Below, in pieces: positions 1 through 8,404 of a DNA stretch of 10,330 nucleotides. The notes under the pieces are model-generated. The model worked only from the letters and a program-made list of their open reading frames with translations, was not told the origin of the DNA and did no database searches. The DNA lies in IMG/VR virus record IMGVR_UViG_2541047849_000005, positions 1 to 10,330 of that record. The stretch is one strand, 5' to 3'. Source of the stretch: a virus (lineage: Duplodnaviria; Heunggongvirae; Uroviricota; Caudoviricetes). A program made the position numbers and the translations under genes. How positions within the stretch are numbered: the first letter of the stretch is position 1; each line of letters begins with the position of its first letter.

Positions 1-861
1 ATGAGATTCAGCACCCCATTACGGTATCCTGGTGGTAAAGGTAAATTAACTAACTATCTATCAAAGATCATTATGATCAATGGCTTAGATGGTTGCGAAT
101 ATGTTGAGCCGTATGCTGGTGGTGCTGGAGTAGCCATTAATTTACTTTTGTCTGGGAAAGCATCACGTATACATTTAAACGATCTTAATAACGCCATTTT
201 TTGTTTTTGGCGGTCGATTCTAGAAGAAACTGATCAGTTTTGCCAATTAATTGAAAAAACTCCTGTGAATATGGATGAATGGTATAAGAATAAAAATATC
301 ATTAGTAATCAATGTGATTATTCCTCATTGGAAGTTGGATTCGCTACGTTTTTCCTTAATCGAACAAATCGGTCAGGAATTTTGTTAGGTGGTGTAATTG
401 GTGGTAAGGAACAAAATGGAAAATGGAAAATAGATGCTCGATTTAATAAGGTTGATTTAGTAAACCGTATTAAGGTAATAGCAGACCGTAAATCTGATAT
501 TTGTATCTATAACCAAGATGCTAAATCATTCTTGCAAAATACTGTAACTGGATTCCCATTAAAAACATTGCTTTATCTTGACCCTCCATATTATGTTAAA
601 GGAAAGGGCTTGTATCAAAACCATTATAGTCATGATGATCATGTCGAAATTGCTAATATTATAAAATCTAATTCAAAGCATCCATGGATTGTATCTTACG
701 ATAATACTGTTGAAATAAACAACATGTACACTGGTCTTAGAAAAATTGAGTACGGTATCAGCTATAGTGCTCAATCTAGGTACCAAGGGCCAGAAGTAAT
801 CTTTTTTTGTGATAGCATTTCTATTCCTGATGATATGGATCCTACAAGAGTCAAATTATAG
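1..861 (+). CDS. Dam-family (D12 class) N6-adenine DNA methyltransferase, 286 aa
   Basis: N-terminal AdoMet-binding region YPGGKGKL...VEPYAGGAGV (aa 9-44), FFLNRTNRSG block, catalytic DPPY at aa 194-197 (nt 580-591). Colinear with E. coli Dam motif order (WAGGK / VEPFVGAGS / LYLNRYGYNG / CDPPY) as recalled. Visibly AT-rich compared with the neighbouring int. ATG at nt 1, TAG at 859-861. Confidence 0.85.
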   Translation: MRFSTPLRYPGGKGKLTNYLSKIIMINGLDGCEYVEPYAGGAGVAINLLLSGKASRIHLNDLNNAIFCFWRSILEETDQFCQLIEKTPVNMDEWYKNKNIISNQCDYSSLEVGFATFFLNRTNRSGILLGGVIGGKEQNGKWKIDARFNKVDLVNRIKVIADRKSDICIYNQDAKSFLQNTVTGFPLKTLLYLDPPYYVKGKGLYQNHYSHDDHVEIANIIKSNSKHPWIVSYDNTVEINNMYTGLRKIEYGISYSAQSRYQGPEVIFFCDSISIPDDMDPTRVKL

Positions 862-4617: not shown

Positions 4618-4767
4618 ATGACTTTTGATGAAAAAGAACTTGATAATGCAATTAATAAAATCATCGTAACGTCGCTCTTTTCCTGTCTCAGCGACACTCA
4701 GCAGAAACAGTTCTACGAATCGGCTTTCAACATGATCGAGCGTTGTTGTTTCTGCGATGCCGACTAG
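4618..4767 (+). CDS. Small ORF, 49 aa (MTFDEKELDNAINKIIVTSLFSCLSDTQQKQFYESAFNMIERCCFCDAD), hypothetical; possibly the N-terminal stump of a deleted gene
   Basis: ATG at 4618 preceded by AAAGGAAAA 7-8 nt upstream; stop TAG at 4765-4767. Not in the supplied ORF track, presumably below its length cut-off. Overlaps the 5' end of the tape-measure reading frame in another frame. Confidence 0.3.
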   Translation: MTFDEKELDNAINKIIVTSLFSCLSDTQQKQFYESAFNMIERCCFCDAD

Positions 4768-6302
4768 TTACAACGGCTGATTTTCAGAACATGATGCAGA
4801 TGCTGGTGCGTCAGGGGATCCCGGCAGAAAACATTCTTGGCGGTGTGGGTAAAGCGACAGCTTATCTTGCGGTACAACTGAAAAAAACACCGGAAGCGGC
4901 TGCCGAGTTTGCCGCAAAGATGCAGGATGCTACCGGAACGGCGTCAGAAGACATGATGGGGCTGTTCGACACTATCCAGAAGGCGTTTTATCTGGGCGTT
5001 GACGATACCAACATGTTGTCCTTCTTCACTAAAACCAGTTCTGTTCTGAAGATGGTGAACAAGGACGGTCTTCAGGCTGCACAGAGCCTTGCCCCCATCA
5101 GCGTCATGATGGATCAGATGGGGATGAACGGGGAGTCGGCAGGTAATGCCCTGCGAAAAGTTATCCAGTCCGGATTAAGCGTTAAGAAAATCAGGGACGT
5201 CAATAAAATCATGGCCCGCCAGAAACTCGGGGTACAGCTCGATTTTACTGATGGCAAAGGGAGTTTTGGCGGTCTTGATAACATGTTCAGGCAACTGGCA
5301 AAGCTGCGAAAACTGACCGACGTTAAGCGAACCGGTGTACTTAAGGCAATATTTGGTGATGATGCCGAAACCCTTCAGGTGGTCAATGCTCTGATCGATA
5401 AAGGAAAGAATGGTTACGATCAGATCCAGCAGAAGATGCATAAACAGGCCAGCCTGAATAAACGTGTTCAGGCCCAGCTTGGTACGCTGTCCAACCTGTG
5501 GGAGGCAATGACGGGGACCGCAACTAACGGCCTTGCGGCTATTGGTGGCGCATTTTCTGGTGACGCCAAAAATATCACGCAATGGCTGGGGGAGTTAGGG
5601 GAAAAATTCACGAAGTTTGCGGATGAAAATCCCCGGGTTATTCGCGGCGTCGTCGGGCTTGCTGCCGGTCTTGCGATTCTGAAACTGGGATTGATGGGCG
5701 TGGGCAGTGCCATCAGTATCGTCAGCAGGATCATGTCGATGACGCCGATTGGCATGATTGCGACGGCGATTGCCCTGGCTGCGGGATTAATTATCACTAA
5801 CTGGGATGTTGTCGGACCTTATTTTAAGAAACTCTGGGAAACCATTAGTCCTTATTTTGAGGCTGGCTGGGAACTTCTGAAGAAGGTTTTTGCCTGGTCG
5901 CCGCTGGGGATGGTGATCAATAACTGGGGACCGGTTGTTAAGTGGTTTCAGGATATGTGGGATAAGCTGAAGCCGATTATTGAATGGTTTACCGACAGTT
6001 CCGGTGACACGGTCGATGCCATTAACTCGGCGCAGTGGGGCGCGGGTGCTTATGATGCTTATGAGACGGGAATACCGCCACGGGGATACACTCCTTATCC
6101 GGAGGTGGATCCGGCTCAGGCAAACAACGCCTCCGGTGCCACAGGCTCGAATCCCTTCATGATTAATAAAGTTACCGCGCCAAAAGTTGATGGTGAGATC
6201 AAGGTATCATTTATAAATATGCCACCAGGTATGCGGGTTACGGAAACACGCTCCAGTGGCATTGATATAAATCACGATGTTGGCTATACCCGATTTTGGT
6301 AG
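4743..6302 (+). CDS. Phage tail tape measure protein, C-terminal portion (probably a 5'-truncated remnant; pseudogene candidate)
   Basis: Internal hydrophobic stretch (VIRGVVGLAAGLAILKLGLMGVGSAISIV...IGMIATAIALAAGLIIT) followed by a Trp-periodic region (W every 9-11 residues, about nt 5797-5990), both typical of tape measure proteins. The frame is open from 4659, with a TTG at 4743 and the first ATG at 4791, and no convincing RBS. At about 519 aa it is shorter than the usual 700-900 aa, and the upstream sheath/tube/chaperone genes are absent. Confidence 0.7.
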   Translation: MLFLRCRLVTTADFQNMMQMLVRQGIPAENILGGVGKATAYLAVQLKKTPEAAAEFAAKMQDATGTASEDMMGLFDTIQKAFYLGVDDTNMLSFFTKTSSVLKMVNKDGLQAAQSLAPISVMMDQMGMNGESAGNALRKVIQSGLSVKKIRDVNKIMARQKLGVQLDFTDGKGSFGGLDNMFRQLAKLRKLTDVKRTGVLKAIFGDDAETLQVVNALIDKGKNGYDQIQQKMHKQASLNKRVQAQLGTLSNLWEAMTGTATNGLAAIGGAFSGDAKNITQWLGELGEKFTKFADENPRVIRGVVGLAAGLAILKLGLMGVGSAISIVSRIMSMTPIGMIATAIALAAGLIITNWDVVGPYFKKLWETISPYFEAGWELLKKVFAWSPLGMVINNWGPVVKWFQDMWDKLKPIIEWFTDSSGDTVDAINSAQWGAGAYDAYETGIPPRGYTPYPEVDPAQANNASGATGSNPFMINKVTAPKVDGEIKVSFINMPPGMRVTETRSSGIDINHDVGYTRFW

Positions 6303-6330
6303 CCAGGATTCCCCTCACAGGTATTGCTGG

Positions 6331-6358
6331 TTGTAAGTCATAAATAGAGTGATAGAAT
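6331..6358 (+). promoter_or_regulatory. Candidate sigma70 promoter with extended -10 for the moron gene (-35 TTGTAA 6331-6336; 16-nt spacer; TGaTAGAAT with hexamer at 6353-6358)
   Basis: Motifs read from the sequence; about 35 nt upstream of the 6394 start codon. Not experimentally supported. Confidence 0.4.
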
Positions 6359-6393
6359 TAATGCACATTTAGAAAAATGTTAATAGGCGAAAA

Positions 6394-6924
6394 ATGAAAG
6401 GCTATATCACAGCAAGTGTAATTCTTGGAGCAGCGGCTATTTTTTCATCTCTCATAATCTCTGGCAACATCTCCTTTAAAGATGAACATATTATTCAGTT
6501 ATCTGGAGGAGCCATAAAACTTGGTGATGTTTATAAAGAAAATAAATTGATAAGTGCAAAGATTATTTTTCCAGATAATCAGGGTGAACAGATTCTTGTT
6601 GTCGACGGCAATCCTGAAAACTTTAAGGAGGATTTTCAGGGGAAATTAAATAAAGTAATAAAAACTTTAAATGCGTCAAAGAAAAAAGATGAAGAGAAAG
6701 TTAGCCTGGATAATTTAAGTGTTATTGAAGAGTCTAAACTAGAGCTCGTTTCTGCGGTGCGTTACTCTGCTCAGTATGTTCCTATGTTTACTCTGACGCT
6801 GGACAAAAAAGAAATTACCATGCCTAAAAATACGGTAATATTTCCATTTGCCAGCGATGAAACAGCTAAGTATTTAAATGAACAACAGCAAAAGTATAAA
6901 GATTCGTTGTTTCTGACTCGCTAA
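6394..6924 (+). CDS. Moron-encoded membrane-anchored protein of unknown function, 176 aa (single N-terminal hydrophobic span, Lys/Glu-rich C-terminal domain)
   Basis: Clean ORF in an AT-rich insert. N-terminus MKGYITASVILGAAAIFSSLIISG is an approximately 20-residue hydrophobic signal-anchor; no cysteine, so not a lipoprotein. Flanked by its own promoter candidate and an intrinsic terminator. No family recognised. Confidence 0.8.
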   Translation: MKGYITASVILGAAAIFSSLIISGNISFKDEHIIQLSGGAIKLGDVYKENKLISAKIIFPDNQGEQILVVDGNPENFKEDFQGKLNKVIKTLNASKKKDEEKVSLDNLSVIEESKLELVSAVRYSAQYVPMFTLTLDKKEITMPKNTVIFPFASDETAKYLNEQQQKYKDSLFLTR

Positions 6925-6941
6925 TTAATAAAATTCATTAC

Positions 6942-6975
6942 AAGGCCACCTTCTAATAGGTGGCTTTTTAATTTT
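6942..6975 (+). terminator. Rho-independent terminator (stem GCCACCT 6945-6951 / AGGTGGC 6958-6964, loop TCTAAT, then TTTTTAATTTT)
   Basis: GC-rich 7-bp stem followed directly by a T-run, 18 nt after the moron stop codon and just before the next gene's RBS. Confidence 0.75.
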
Positions 6976-6985
6976 CGGAGTATAT

Positions 6986-8404
6986 ATGACGTGGAAAGAC
7001 AGGCTTCAGGATGCGTCATTTCGAGGTGTGCCGTTTAAGGTTGAAGAAGAAAGTGCGGGAACTGGCCGTCGTGTGGAAACGCACGAATACCCGAACCGCG
7101 ACAAACCCTATACCGAAGACCTGGGGAAAATTACTTTCCGCCCGTCCATCACGGCTTATGTGGTGGGAGATGACTGCTTTGACCAGCGCGATCGCCTGAT
7201 TGACGCGCTGAATAAACCCGGTCCCGGCACGCTTGTCCATCCGACTTACGGTGAGCTGAAAGTCTGTGTTGACGGAGAAGTTCGGGTCAGCACATCGAAG
7301 AGTGAAGGACGTATTGTCCGCTTTGACCTGAAGTTTGTCGAAGCAGGAGAACTCTCTTACCCCACATCAGGTGCGGCGACGGCGCAGGCGCTGATGTCAT
7401 CCTGTTCTGCACTGGATGACTGCATCAGTAACAGCTTCAGCGGTTTTAGTATCGATGGCGTGGCGGATTTTGTGCAGAACGACGTCGTCGGTAATGCCAG
7501 CACAATGCTTGGGTATGTTTCTGATGCGATGAAAGTGGTGGATTCTGCCGTATCGGATGCCGCCAGGCTGTTGCAGGGGGATATCTCGGTACTTCTGCCG
7601 CCGCCATCGTCAGGCAAAAATTTCGTTGAGCAGGTGCAGAAAATGTGGCGTACCGGGAAACGCCTTTATGGTAACGCCAGCGACCTGGTCACCATGATCA
7701 AAACGCTTTCTGGTGTCAGCCTCGGCAGCGATTTGCAACCGCGCGGCGTCTGGAAAATGGACAGTAAAACCACCGCCACAGCGACGCAGCAGCGTAACAT
7801 GGTTGCCAGCACCCTTCGTACGACTGCAATCAGCGAAGCGGCGTATGCCGTTACCCGATTGCCTGCGCCAACAACTTCTGCGGTGATGCAGAATGCCGCA
7901 GTGGGGCAGTCAACAACACCCGCGCAGAGCTCCGGCTGGCCTGCCGTCACGCATCCGGTGCTGAACAATGCACCGGCGGTGAAAAACACGGTTGACCTGC
8001 CAACGTGGGAAGAACTGACCGACATTCGCGACACACTGAATATGGCAATTGATAAGGAGTTGTCCCGTACAACCAGTGATGCGCTGTTTCTGGCGCTGCG
8101 CCGGGTGAAAGCAGATCTGAATGCGGATACCTGGCCTGCGGTACAGAATGACCGTTACGGCTCCCGACTGTGGCTGCTTCAGCGCAGCAAACTGACCAAT
8201 CAGCTGGTGCAGACGGTAAGGGGGTATATCCGCGAATGCCTGCAATGGATGATTGATGATGGCGTGGTGTCCCGTATTGATCTGGATATCCGCCGCACCG
8301 GGATTAATGAACTGGGTAACAGTATCACTCTCTGGCGTCGTGACGGACCGGTAATGATTTCTTTTGATGATCTGTGGAGTGCGATAACGCATGGCGGACA
8401 GTGA
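6986..8404 (+). CDS. Mu-type DNA circulation protein (gpN/gp43-like) tail component, 472 aa
   Basis: N-terminus MTWKDRLQDASFRGVPFKVEEESAGTGRRVETHEYPNRDKPYTEDLG carries the hallmark SFRGVPF...GRR..HEYP.RD block of the DNA-circulation N-terminal domain. GGAG RBS 5 nt upstream of the ATG at 6986. Confidence 0.85.
   Translation: MTWKDRLQDASFRGVPFKVEEESAGTGRRVETHEYPNRDKPYTEDLGKITFRPSITAYVVGDDCFDQRDRLIDALNKPGPGTLVHPTYGELKVCVDGEVRVSTSKSEGRIVRFDLKFVEAGELSYPTSGAATAQALMSSCSALDDCISNSFSGFSIDGVADFVQNDVVGNASTMLGYVSDAMKVVDSAVSDAARLLQGDISVLLPPPSSGKNFVEQVQKMWRTGKRLYGNASDLVTMIKTLSGVSLGSDLQPRGVWKMDSKTTATATQQRNMVASTLRTTAISEAAYAVTRLPAPTTSAVMQNAAVGQSTTPAQSSGWPAVTHPVLNNAPAVKNTVDLPTWEELTDIRDTLNMAIDKELSRTTSDALFLALRRVKADLNADTWPAVQNDRYGSRLWLLQRSKLTNQLVQTVRGYIRECLQWMIDDGVVSRIDLDIRRTGINELGNSITLWRRDGPVMISFDDLWSAITHGGQ

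What the first reader, a model, noticed from the sequence alone, without database searches (positions are those of the whole stretch)
6303..6985. AT-rich promoter-ORF-terminator moron between the tape-measure and DNA-circulation genes encodes a membrane-anchored protein (candidate superinfection-exclusion or defence factor)
Seen in sequence: a roughly 680-bp cassette sits between two tail genes that are normally adjacent in Mu-type clusters. Its base composition is visibly AT-rich (about one third GC on sampled lines) against flanking tail genes that are over 50% GC. It has its own extended -10 promoter candidate (6331-6358), a 176-aa ORF (6394-6924) and a textbook intrinsic terminator (6942-6975). 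The protein has one N-terminal hydrophobic span (aa 5-24), no Cys, then a charged ~150-aa domain; I recognise no family. Established knowledge: morons such as HK97 gp15 (within the tail operon), lambda lom/bor and T4 imm encode membrane proteins that block entry of superinfecting phage DNA or alter host fitness. Inference: this is a candidate exclusion or defence gene, retained and autonomously expressed in an otherwise decaying prophage.
Basis: partly seen in the sequence, partly recalled or inferred. Interest (0 to 1): 0.75.

Follow-up and report, generated by a model that had tools for sequence, protein, structure and literature searches.

The report
Swappable membrane-protein gene in prophage tail
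An AT-rich extra gene sits between two tail genes of an SfV/e14-type E. coli prophage and encodes a membrane-anchored protein that faces the periplasm; it is one of several interchangeable envelope-protein genes at this spot and is a reasonable but untested candidate for blocking infection by other phages.

Summary
Window 6303-6985 has 34% GC against 50-55% in its flanks, and contains a 176-aa ORF (6394-6924), a strong hairpin plus T-run (6942-6975) and a promoter-like site with an extended -10 (6331-6358).

Comparative genomics shows it is accessory cargo:
- The same junction is empty in 540 complete E. coli genomes and in the plaque-forming phages SfV, SfII, SfIV and 689R6.
- It carries this gene in 175 genomes.
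- It carries three unrelated small envelope-targeted genes in 54-101 genomes each. One of them matches a PHROG labelled "Sie-like".

Homologues with 41% identity or more keep the same slot. More distant ones lie in other moron-type sites or small integrative elements, always with lower GC than their surroundings.

Empty junctions also carry a terminator. The promoter is neither statistically secure nor conserved.

The function is inferred: most likely an envelope-level block to phage entry. I class it as a new member of a known kind, of moderate interest.

The parts
4743..6302 (+). Left flank: 5'-truncated tail tape-measure gene (519-aa ORF from a TTG; the intact gene encodes 610 aa)
   Evidence: Pfam PF10145 PhageMin_Tail, E 8.5e-26. 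Intact 610-aa versions occur in L001 and L109. Identity to L007 is 100% up to window 6301.
6303..6393 (+). Upstream non-coding part of the cassette (91 nt, AT-rich), containing the promoter candidate and a Shine-Dalgarno-like AGG at 6385-6387
   Evidence: Sequence read directly. Homologous cassettes have 60-105 nt here, with little sequence conservation.
6331..6358 (+). Sigma-70-like promoter candidate: TTGTAA, 16 nt, TAGAAT, with TG at 6350-6351 (extended -10)
   Evidence: 9 of 12 matches plus TG. 12 of 500 shuffles reach its score. It is not conserved in position in relatives; only L084 has a clearly strong site, TTGTCA-16-TATAAT. It remains a candidate only.
6394..6924 (+). Cargo gene: 176-aa protein of PHROG 5485 (unknown function)
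   Evidence: phrog_5485, E 1.7e-107. No Pfam, NCBIfam or PADLOC hit. 77 representative clusters in the family. dN/dS about 0.08 for unsaturated pairs. AF2 pLDDT 91.1.
6406..6462 (+). Codons for the single N-terminal membrane span (aa 5-23, ITASVILGAAAIFSSLIIS)
   Evidence: Kyte-Doolittle 2.11. The AF2 model has a helix at residues 2-23. Family-wide: K/R before the span in 54 of 58 members, net neutral or negative after it in 50 of 58, no second span, and a lipobox in 1 of 58.
6463..6921 (+). Codons for the predicted periplasmic alpha/beta domain (aa 24-176), including the family motif N-x-[IV]-x4-G-x-V-x-L-G-x-V-Y-x-E just after the span
6942..6975 (+). Intrinsic terminator (10-bp stem, 6-nt loop, T-run) directly before the ribosome-binding site of the DNA-circulation gene
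   Evidence: -17.3 kcal/mol, z -4.8. All 8 distinct homologous cassettes have a hairpin plus T-run here with different stem sequences. Empty junctions have one too.
6986..8404 (+). Right flank: DNA-circulation gene, here fused in frame to the 3' part of a gp46-like gene by an internal deletion
   Evidence: Pfam DNA_circ_N (aa 7-93) plus GP46 (aa 381-455). It aligns with intact homologues only up to aa 381. The same configuration occurs in GCA_000459575.1 (L110).

Best explanation
The segment is an accessory (moron-type) gene occupying a cargo hot-spot between the tape-measure and DNA-circulation genes of SfV/e14-type myophage tail modules.

Its product is a bitopic inner-membrane protein. It has a short cytoplasmic N-terminus, one membrane span, and a roughly 150-residue alpha/beta domain in the periplasm. 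It is the E. coli representative of an uncharacterised family (PHROG 5485) that travels as single-gene cargo on temperate phages and small integrative elements of Proteobacteria.

The most likely function is a single-protein barrier at the envelope, of the superinfection-exclusion type. In this reading the periplasmic domain, tethered to the inner membrane, binds either the tail-tip or tape-measure apparatus of an incoming phage or a host inner-membrane component that the phage needs. This would prevent DNA from crossing the inner membrane without affecting adsorption.

Shown here: accessory status, hot-spot behaviour, purifying selection, the single N-terminal span with an N-in/C-out charge bias, and the absence of any known homologue.

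Inferred: periplasmic location (not tested experimentally), expression from the prophage, and the exclusion function itself.

My confidence that it is dispensable envelope-targeted cargo is above 0.9. The figure given below is for the exclusion function.
For: Accessory status:
- The junction is empty in 540 of 5426 complete E. coli genomes and in the viable phages SfV, SfII, SfIV and 689R6.
- This cassette is present in 175 genomes.
- Three unrelated alternatives occupy the same slot in 54, 84 and 101 genomes.

Envelope theme:
- All four cargo proteins are 148-176 aa and have an N-terminal signal peptide or membrane anchor.
- The OB-fold allele matches phrog_8545, annotated "superinfection exclusion Sie-like", with E 1.5e-49.

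A real, selected gene:
- dN/dS is 0.08 in unsaturated pairs.
- The profile search finds 77 clusters, nearly all of about 175 aa.

Independence from tails:
- Homologues at 23-34% identity lie after a Q antiterminator, inside an unrelated baseplate cluster, after an SLT-type tape measure, beside umuC, and in small integrative elements.
- In each viral-contig locus measured the gene has lower GC than its surroundings.

Topology: the charge bias and single span hold across 58 members.

No catalytic signature: the invariant positions are Gly, Tyr, Leu and Glu, with no conserved His, Cys, Asp or Ser set. This fits a binding protein.

Precedent: HK97 gp15 is an inner-membrane moron protein next to the tape-measure gene that blocks genome injection (PMC3594210).
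Against: - No experiment or homology links PHROG 5485 to phage exclusion.
- Profile comparison finds no relation to HK97 gp15 or P1 SimC. No PADLOC model matches any of the 58 members beyond chance.
- The PHROG "Sie-like" label on the neighbouring allele is an annotation, not a tested function, and that protein is unrelated to this one.
- Promoter evidence is weak and not conserved. The gene is co-oriented with the late operon, so it may be expressed mainly during lytic growth.
- Some genomes carry this cassette together with a second match to the same tail-module junction. If that second match is another prophage of the type, any exclusion of close relatives is not absolute.
- Many morons encode envelope proteins with host-fitness roles unrelated to phage.
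Confidence: 0.4

Rival explanations
1. It is a lysogenic-conversion or host-fitness factor unrelated to phage exclusion. The periplasm-facing membrane protein would alter envelope physiology, for example stress tolerance, colicin or antimicrobial resistance, or interaction with an animal host, as lambda Bor and Lom do.
For: The same evidence of accessory status and envelope targeting applies. Morons are known to have diverse host-fitness roles (PMC3594210). The family occurs on several kinds of mobile element, not only next to injection machinery. The intact ORF survives between two deletions in this degraded prophage.
Against: There is no homology to any known virulence or fitness factor. Carriers come from many hosts and environments, including dog, pig, human, soil and water, with no obvious niche signal. 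One sibling allele carries a Sie-like annotation.
Confidence: 0.27
2. It is a late-expressed accessory function of the phage's own lytic cycle. The gene would be transcribed by read-through of the tail operon and act in the infected cell, for example by preventing progeny from injecting into lysing or already infected cells, or by tuning lysis or the envelope state. It would not be a prophage-expressed gene.
For: The gene is co-oriented with the tail operon in every SfV/e14-type locus. Several homologous cassettes lack a convincing promoter. The downstream terminator also exists at empty junctions, so it may be an operon attenuator that the cargo simply sits upstream of.
Against: The OB-fold allele in the same slot is on the opposite strand, so that slot occupant cannot be expressed by late-operon read-through and needs its own promoter. 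The window and L084 cassettes do have good extended -10 or consensus promoters. Distant homologues in small integrative elements have no late operon to ride on.
Confidence: 0.15
3. It is a membrane effector of an abortive-infection or toxin-immunity function, for example a protein that depolarises or permeabilises the membrane when triggered, or an immunity protein against a periplasm-acting toxin.
For: It has a single-pass membrane architecture and travels as single-gene cargo on mobile elements, next to restriction-type genes in some contexts (Mrr in L011, a methyltransferase in L108).
Against: There is no constant partner gene. Only one span is present and nothing suggests oligomeric pore formation. 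No PADLOC match. The large folded periplasmic domain looks like a binding module rather than a pore.
Confidence: 0.1
4. It is a tail structural protein, assembly chaperone or tape-measure-associated factor needed to build or fire the Mu-type tail.
For: It lies between the tape-measure and baseplate genes, and this position is conserved down to 41% identity.
Against: It is absent from the viable phages SfV, SfII, SfIV and 689R6 and from 540 E. coli genomes with an otherwise homologous junction. It is replaced by unrelated genes, one on the opposite strand. Distant homologues lie outside tail clusters. It carries an N-terminal membrane anchor. tblastn against 50,697 phage records finds nothing.
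Confidence: 0.02

Closest known systems
HK97 gp15 moron (YebO-like inner-membrane superinfection-exclusion protein)
   Same: Both are single small genes inserted into a tail operon immediately next to the tape-measure gene, followed by an annotated or predicted terminator. Both products have one N-terminal membrane span. gp15 blocks genome injection from the inner membrane (PMC3594210), which is the mechanism proposed here.
   Different: There is no sequence relationship (hhalign probability 0.3%). gp15 is 62 aa with almost no extramembrane domain, whereas this protein has a folded periplasmic domain of about 150 aa. gp15 lies upstream of the tape-measure gene in a siphovirus; this gene lies downstream of it in a Mu/SfV-type myovirus.
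Membrane- or periplasm-located exclusion proteins with a sizeable extracytoplasmic domain (P1 Sim, T4 Sp, lactococcal Sie2009, P22 SieA)
   Same: The general design recalled from the literature is the same: a prophage- or phage-encoded protein that is anchored in or exported across the inner membrane and acts after adsorption and before DNA entry. For T4 Sp, Sie2009 and SieA this comparison rests on my own knowledge, not on a test run here.
   Different: P1 SimC shows no relationship in profile comparison. At E <= 1, scanning this protein against PHROGs returned no family annotated as exclusion, only phrog_5485, phrog_34391 and a chance-level hit. T4 Sp, Sie2009 and SieA were not compared individually.
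Lipoprotein exclusion factors (T5 Llp, phi80/N15 Cor, S. thermophilus Ltp)
   Same: These are small envelope-targeted proteins encoded by phages that block entry. Ltp is reported to act on the tape-measure protein (from my own knowledge and the abstract listing).
   Different: This protein has no Cys and no lipobox, and a lipobox occurs in only 1 of 58 family members. It is therefore anchored by a membrane span or signal anchor, not by a lipid. It should face the periplasm from the inner membrane rather than sit at the outer membrane.
Variable cargo hot-spots of temperate phages (P2/P4 hot-spots of antiviral systems; lambdoid Q-S moron region)
   Same: A fixed junction between conserved phage genes holds alternative, unrelated, compositionally foreign genes in otherwise near-identical prophages. 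P2/P4 hot-spots are described in PMC9122126 (listed).
   Different: This hot-spot lies inside the tail operon of SfV/e14-type phages. In E. coli it holds only single small envelope-targeted genes, not multi-gene cytoplasmic defence systems. I found no paper describing it.

Membership tests
Moron (Juhala/Hendrix sense; definition as given in PMC3594210) | Extra DNA present in one phage and absent at the same position in close relatives | tested here: met
   The junction is empty in 540 E. coli genomes and in SfV, SfII, SfIV and 689R6. This cassette is present in 175 genomes.
Moron (Juhala/Hendrix sense; definition as given in PMC3594210) | Base composition differs from the surrounding genes | tested here: met
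   GC is 0.34 against 0.51 and 0.56, and GC3 is 0.30 against 0.56-0.59. The same contrast holds in the Leclercia and Edwardsiella versions.
Moron (Juhala/Hendrix sense; definition as given in PMC3594210) | Own transcription terminator | tested here: inconclusive
   A strong hairpin plus T-run is present here and in all 8 cassette variants, with different stems. Empty junctions also have a terminator, so it may belong to the operon rather than to the cargo.
Moron (Juhala/Hendrix sense; definition as given in PMC3594210) | Own promoter | tested here: inconclusive
   An extended -10 candidate lies at 6331-6358, and 12 of 500 shuffles reach its score. Relatives have no positionally conserved promoter, and several have none that exceeds shuffles.
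Moron (Juhala/Hendrix sense; definition as given in PMC3594210) | Expressed from the repressed prophage | not testable with these tools
   This needs RNA-seq, 5'-RACE or a reporter in a lysogen.
PHROG 5485 (unknown function) | Full-length match to the family profile | tested here: met
   E 1.7e-107 over residues 1-176 of 176. All 58 aligned relatives match the same PHROG.
HK97 gp15 / YebO family | Sequence or profile homology to gp15 | tested here: not met
   hhalign of the 58-sequence profile against gp15: probability 0.3%, 6 aligned columns.
P1 Sim (SimC) superimmunity protein | Sequence or profile homology to SimC | tested here: not met
   hhalign probability 0.4%.
Known anti-phage defence systems (PADLOC-DB v2) | Match to any component model | tested here: not met
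   No hit for the window protein at E <= 1. Only two single chance-level hits among the 58 relatives.
Lipoprotein exclusion factors (Llp/Cor/Ltp type) | Lipobox with an invariant Cys after the signal sequence | tested here: not met
   No Cys in the protein. A lipobox occurs in 1 of 58 relatives.
Structural or assembly component of the SfV/Mu-type tail | Present in all functional phages with this tail module, and confined to tail clusters | tested here: not met
   Absent from SfV, SfII, SfIV and 689R6. No tblastn hit in 50,697 phage records. Distant homologues lie outside tail clusters.
Superinfection-exclusion protein (functional class) | Reduces infection by blocking entry, without loss of adsorption, when expressed alone | not testable with these tools
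   Requires plating, adsorption and DNA-entry assays.
Bitopic inner-membrane protein, N-in/C-out | A single hydrophobic span with positive charge on the N-terminal side and no second span | tested here: met
   Across 58 members: median uncharged span of 22 residues, K/R before the span in 54, net neutral or negative after it in 50, no second span in any. The AF2 model has a helix at residues 2-23. Cleavage by signal peptidase cannot be excluded; UniRef labels one homologue "Secreted protein".

The most novel reading that the evidence does not exclude
PHROG 5485 is a new single-gene superinfection-exclusion family with a fold not seen among solved structures. On this reading, the tape-measure/DNA-circulation junction of SfV/e14-type phages is a dedicated hot-spot where alternative envelope-acting anti-phage genes are exchanged. 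There are at least four unrelated families in E. coli, each placed just upstream of a terminator in the tail operon. This would give about 8% of sequenced E. coli strains strain-specific barriers to phage entry.
Probability: 0.3. Interest if true: 0.6.

Novelty: new member of a known kind. Interest (0 to 1): 0.45.

Why it matters
If the protein does block phage entry, it would add a structurally new, single-gene exclusion family that is easy to test. It would also define a compact hot-spot, five allelic states at one junction present in roughly 950 of 5426 complete E. coli genomes, from which three more candidate envelope-acting genes can be taken.

Such entry blocks are missed by defence-system finders, and no PADLOC model matches this family. 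They matter for predicting phage host range and for phage therapy against E. coli and Shigella.

Separately, a terminator persists at empty junctions. This suggests a built-in attenuator between the tube/tape-measure genes and the baseplate genes of SfV-type phages, which cargo genes exploit.

If the gene turns out to have a host-fitness role instead, it remains an ordinary moron.

Tried and rejected
Searches that found nothing useful:
- Pfam, NCBIfam and PADLOC scans of the protein and of 58 relatives gave nothing consistent.
- tblastn against 50,697 phage records gave no hit.
- A profile search against PDB sequences gave nothing below E 0.5.
- Foldseek against BFVD gave one modest hit, to a phage protein annotated as a lipoprotein, which is not informative about function.
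- The afdb50 library was unavailable.
- The weak PHROG hit to an "endonuclease" family (E 0.035) was dismissed: it is at chance level, and the domain is predicted to be periplasmic with no conserved catalytic residues.
- Rfam found no RNA family in the window.
- Literature searches for the RefSeq accession, for e14/SfV morons, for the Pfam family name tRNA_anti-like together with exclusion, and for tail hot-spots found no description of this gene or slot.

Ideas considered and dropped:
- A transposon-like mobile cassette: there are no terminal inverted repeats or target duplications.
- Homology among the four slot occupants: none was found for the two signal-peptide alleles. The OB-fold allele was not compared by profile, but it belongs to a different Pfam family and a different PHROG.
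- A conserved promoter from an alignment of upstream regions: the regions are too divergent.

Technical limits:
- The search for related loci with the broad alignments A2 and A5 failed for lack of a conserved stretch.
- The genome-contig scan returned only one locus, from Edwardsiella.
Full report
**1. The observation**

The window is a degraded E. coli prophage of the SfV/e14 type: a lambda-type integrase and an early-region remnant on the minus strand, followed by a Mu-type tail module on the plus strand.

The segment 6303-6985 is as described:
- GC is 0.341, against 0.505 and 0.555 in the flanking kilobases. GC3 of the ORF is 0.30, against 0.56-0.59 in the neighbouring genes.
- It holds one ORF, 6394-6924, of 176 aa. 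The protein has no cysteine and a single hydrophobic span at residues 5-23.
- A 10-bp hairpin with a T-run lies at 6942-6975. Its folding energy is -17.3 kcal/mol, z = -4.8, and 0 of 200 shuffles fold as well.
- A promoter-like site lies upstream: TTGTAA, 16 nt, TGaTAGAAT, at 6331-6358.

The promoter is the weak point. The generic scan finds no excess of such sites over shuffled sequence. In my own score, 12 of 500 shuffles of the upstream 110 nt reach it.

No Rfam family and no transposon-like terminal repeats are present.

**2. It is accessory cargo in a hot-spot**

The DNA-circulation protein is 95-98% identical to those of the plaque-forming phages SfV, SfI, SfII, SfIV, SKA5 and the two vB_EcoM phages. 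In SfV, SfII, SfIV and vB_EcoM-689R6 the tape-measure and DNA-circulation genes are adjacent, with nothing between them. The tail is therefore built without this gene.

Among 5426 complete E. coli genomes, the junction occurs in five states:

| State of the junction | Genomes |
|---|---|
| Empty | 540 |
| This cassette | 175 |
| 162-aa signal-peptide protein (L010 type) | 101 |
| 164-aa signal-peptide protein (L009 type) | 84 |
| 148-aa membrane-anchored OB-fold protein, opposite strand (L007 type) | 54 |

Against the OB-fold carrier, identity is 100% up to window 6301 and resumes at 6983. The exchanged unit is thus exactly the interval from stop codon to start codon.

The two signal-peptide alternatives are unrelated to this protein. 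The OB-fold allele was not compared directly but belongs to a different Pfam family and PHROG. All four share one property: a small size of 148-176 aa and an N-terminal export or anchor sequence.

The OB-fold allele matches Pfam tRNA_anti-like and phrog_8545, which PHROGs annotates "superinfection exclusion Sie-like". That is an annotation, not a tested function.

Most carriers of the exact window protein are intact prophages. The window's own degraded configuration matches GCA_000459575.1.

**3. The protein family**

The protein has no Pfam, NCBIfam or PADLOC match. It belongs to phrog_5485, of unknown function, and every source calls it hypothetical.

- A word-indexed search finds only Enterobacteriaceae relatives at 52-59% identity, in Leclercia and Lelliottia. 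One Edwardsiella homologue at 41% turned up separately.
- An exhaustive profile search finds 77 representative clusters at 50% identity, nearly all of about 175 aa and matching end to end.
- All 58 relatives that I aligned hit phrog_5485 and nothing consistent in Pfam or PADLOC.
- Conserved features are the N-terminal span, a motif N-x-[IV]-x4-G-x-V-x-L-G-x-V-Y-x-E immediately after it, and V-x-Y-x-[SA]-E-x-x-P-x-F-x-L further on. The invariant residues are Gly and Tyr, and there is no catalytic-looking set.
- Unsaturated pairs give dN/dS of about 0.08, so this is a real gene under purifying selection.

Topology across the 58 members:
- The uncharged span has a median length of 22 residues.
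- Lys or Arg precedes the span in 54 members.
- The 15 residues after the span are net neutral or negative in 50 members.
- No member has a second span.
- A lipobox occurs in one member.

This pattern indicates an N-in, C-out anchor, or possibly a cleaved signal. UniRef labels one homologue "Secreted protein". Either way the folded domain faces the periplasm.

**4. Structure**

With 14 close sequences, AlphaFold2 gave pLDDT 67. With the 58-sequence alignment it gave pLDDT 91.1 and pTM 0.76. The model has a helix at 2-23, strands at 32-36, 39-44, 46-58 and 66-72, a helix at 74-94, strands at 114-126 and 132-143, and a helix at 149-171.

- The PDB sequence profile search gave nothing.
- Foldseek against viral predicted structures gave one modest hit, to a Pseudomonas phage protein annotated as a lipoprotein.
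- The AlphaFold-database library could not be searched.

The fold is therefore unassigned. I cannot say it is new.

**5. Context of relatives**

Every homologue at 41% identity or more lies in the same slot of an SfV/e14-type tail module. In those loci:
- The gene is again AT-rich, at GC 0.35 against 0.47-0.56 in the flanks.
- It is again followed by a hairpin plus T-run. The stem sequence differs between variants, at -17 to -26 kcal/mol.

Divergence between the window and the Leclercia version:

| Gene | Identity |
|---|---|
| Tape measure | 43% |
| Cargo gene | 53% |
| DNA-circulation protein | 70% |
| Baseplate J | 77% |

These figures are compatible with long co-residence of the gene in this module without its composition drifting towards that of the flanks.

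More distant relatives, at 23-34% identity, lie elsewhere:
- directly after an SLT-domain tape measure in an unrelated myovirus-type cluster;
- between a baseplate hub and a gpV-like spike;
- between antiterminator Q and the lysis genes of a lambdoid element;
- beside umuC and a tail-fibre gene;
- beside an HTH-M78 regulator and a methyltransferase;
- in small integrative elements next to a serine recombinase and Mrr.

In each viral-contig locus the gene has lower GC than its surroundings. There is no constant partner gene. The family is therefore roaming single-gene cargo, not a tail component.

**6.

- Empty junctions also carry a hairpin plus T-run just before the ribosome-binding site of the DNA-circulation gene. 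The SfII record annotates one there. A terminator at this point is thus a property of the operon, possibly an attenuator between genes needed in many copies and the baseplate genes. Its presence does not show that the cassette is an independent unit.
- Upstream regions of homologous cassettes are too divergent to align. Only the window and one relative, L084 (TTGTCA-16-TATAAT), have promoters that clearly beat shuffles. Autonomous expression is therefore plausible but unproven. Read-through from the late operon is an alternative for the co-oriented alleles. The OB-fold allele, on the opposite strand, needs its own promoter.

**7. Mechanism**

The best-supported reading is a prophage- or phage-encoded protein that is tethered to the inner membrane, faces the periplasm and acts by binding rather than catalysis.

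I favour an entry block of the superinfection-exclusion type, with confidence 0.4, for three reasons:
- All occupants of the slot are envelope-targeted.
- One sibling allele carries an exclusion annotation.
- There is a precedent: HK97 gp15 is an inner-membrane moron protein next to the tape-measure gene that prevents genome injection (PMC3594210; HK97 record).

The resemblance is functional and architectural only. Profile comparison shows no homology to gp15 or to P1 SimC, and the lipoprotein class is excluded by the absence of a lipobox.

The rivals are:

| Rival | Confidence |
|---|---|
| Host-fitness envelope factor | 0.27 |
| Late-expressed lytic-cycle accessory function | 0.15 |
| Abortive-infection or immunity membrane protein | 0.10 |
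| Tail structural or assembly role (effectively refuted) | 0.02 |

**8. Novelty and verdict**

The kind is known: a moron in a tail operon encoding a membrane protein. The family is uncharacterised, and I found no paper describing the gene or this hot-spot. I class it as a new member of a known kind.

Interest is moderate at 0.45. A specialist would not be surprised. The finding does, however, deliver a well-defined candidate family that is cheap to test, together with a five-state hot-spot and three further candidates.

Noticed in passing
L008 3469-3528; SfII record KC736978.1 11928-11966 (L115 2929-2967); window 6942-6975: Empty tape-measure/DNA-circulation junctions still carry an intrinsic terminator just before the ribosome-binding site of the DNA-circulation gene. 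Late transcription of SfV/e14-type tail operons must therefore pass a terminator whether or not cargo is present. It may be an attenuator that lowers baseplate gene expression relative to the sheath, tube and tape-measure genes.
   Followed up: partly
window 6986-8404 and 4743-6302: The gene to the right is an in-frame DNA_circ_N::GP46 fusion, made by a deletion that removed the gpP-like and gp45-like genes. The tape-measure gene has lost its 5' part. Two deletions thus flank an intact cargo gene.
   Followed up: partly
L007 5086-5532 (minus strand), L009 2926-3420, L010 2881-3369: Three unrelated small envelope-targeted genes occupy the same slot in other E. coli prophages. One is an OB-fold (tRNA_anti-like) membrane protein matching phrog_8545, annotated "Sie-like". 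The other two are signal-peptide proteins of phrog_8976 and phrog_5586, both of unknown function.
   Followed up: partly
L002 10013-11808 (also L003-L005, L088, L089): Leclercia-type relatives carry a second insertion between the DNA-circulation and gpP-like genes. It consists of two genes (503-520 aa and 94 aa) with no Pfam hit and a lower GC of 0.40-0.48. This looks like another cargo slot in the same tail module.
   Followed up: no
window 1-861: An AT-rich (GC 0.31-0.36) D12-class adenine methyltransferase gene lies just outside the integrase end of the prophage. In the matching genome contig (L110) it is preceded by an AAA_15/AAA_21 ATPase gene, so this may be a defence-type island at the attachment site.
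   Followed up: no
L091, L093 and L094, about 30-50 nt upstream of the cargo start codon: A palindrome of the form GCTATC-N7-ATAGC recurs upstream of the cargo gene in three divergent cassettes. It could be an operator or a small hairpin. It is not present in the window version.
   Followed up: no
L011 5634-7534; L014 5935-7531: In small integrative elements, of Pseudomonas type where a source names the host (L011-L013), the distant homologue lies next to a divergently oriented small serine recombinase or invertase. In L011 it also follows an unrelated 180-aa signal-peptide protein, and an Mrr-type nuclease gene lies nearby.
   Followed up: no
window 6394-6924, compared with L002 8001-8525 and L006 1085-1612: The cargo gene keeps about 35% GC (GC3 0.29-0.36) in E. 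coli, Leclercia and Edwardsiella prophages, although its divergence is comparable to that of its flanks. Low GC has not drifted towards the host or phage value. This could reflect selection, for example silencing or regulation by nucleoid proteins, or repeated exchange from an AT-rich gene pool.
   Followed up: partly
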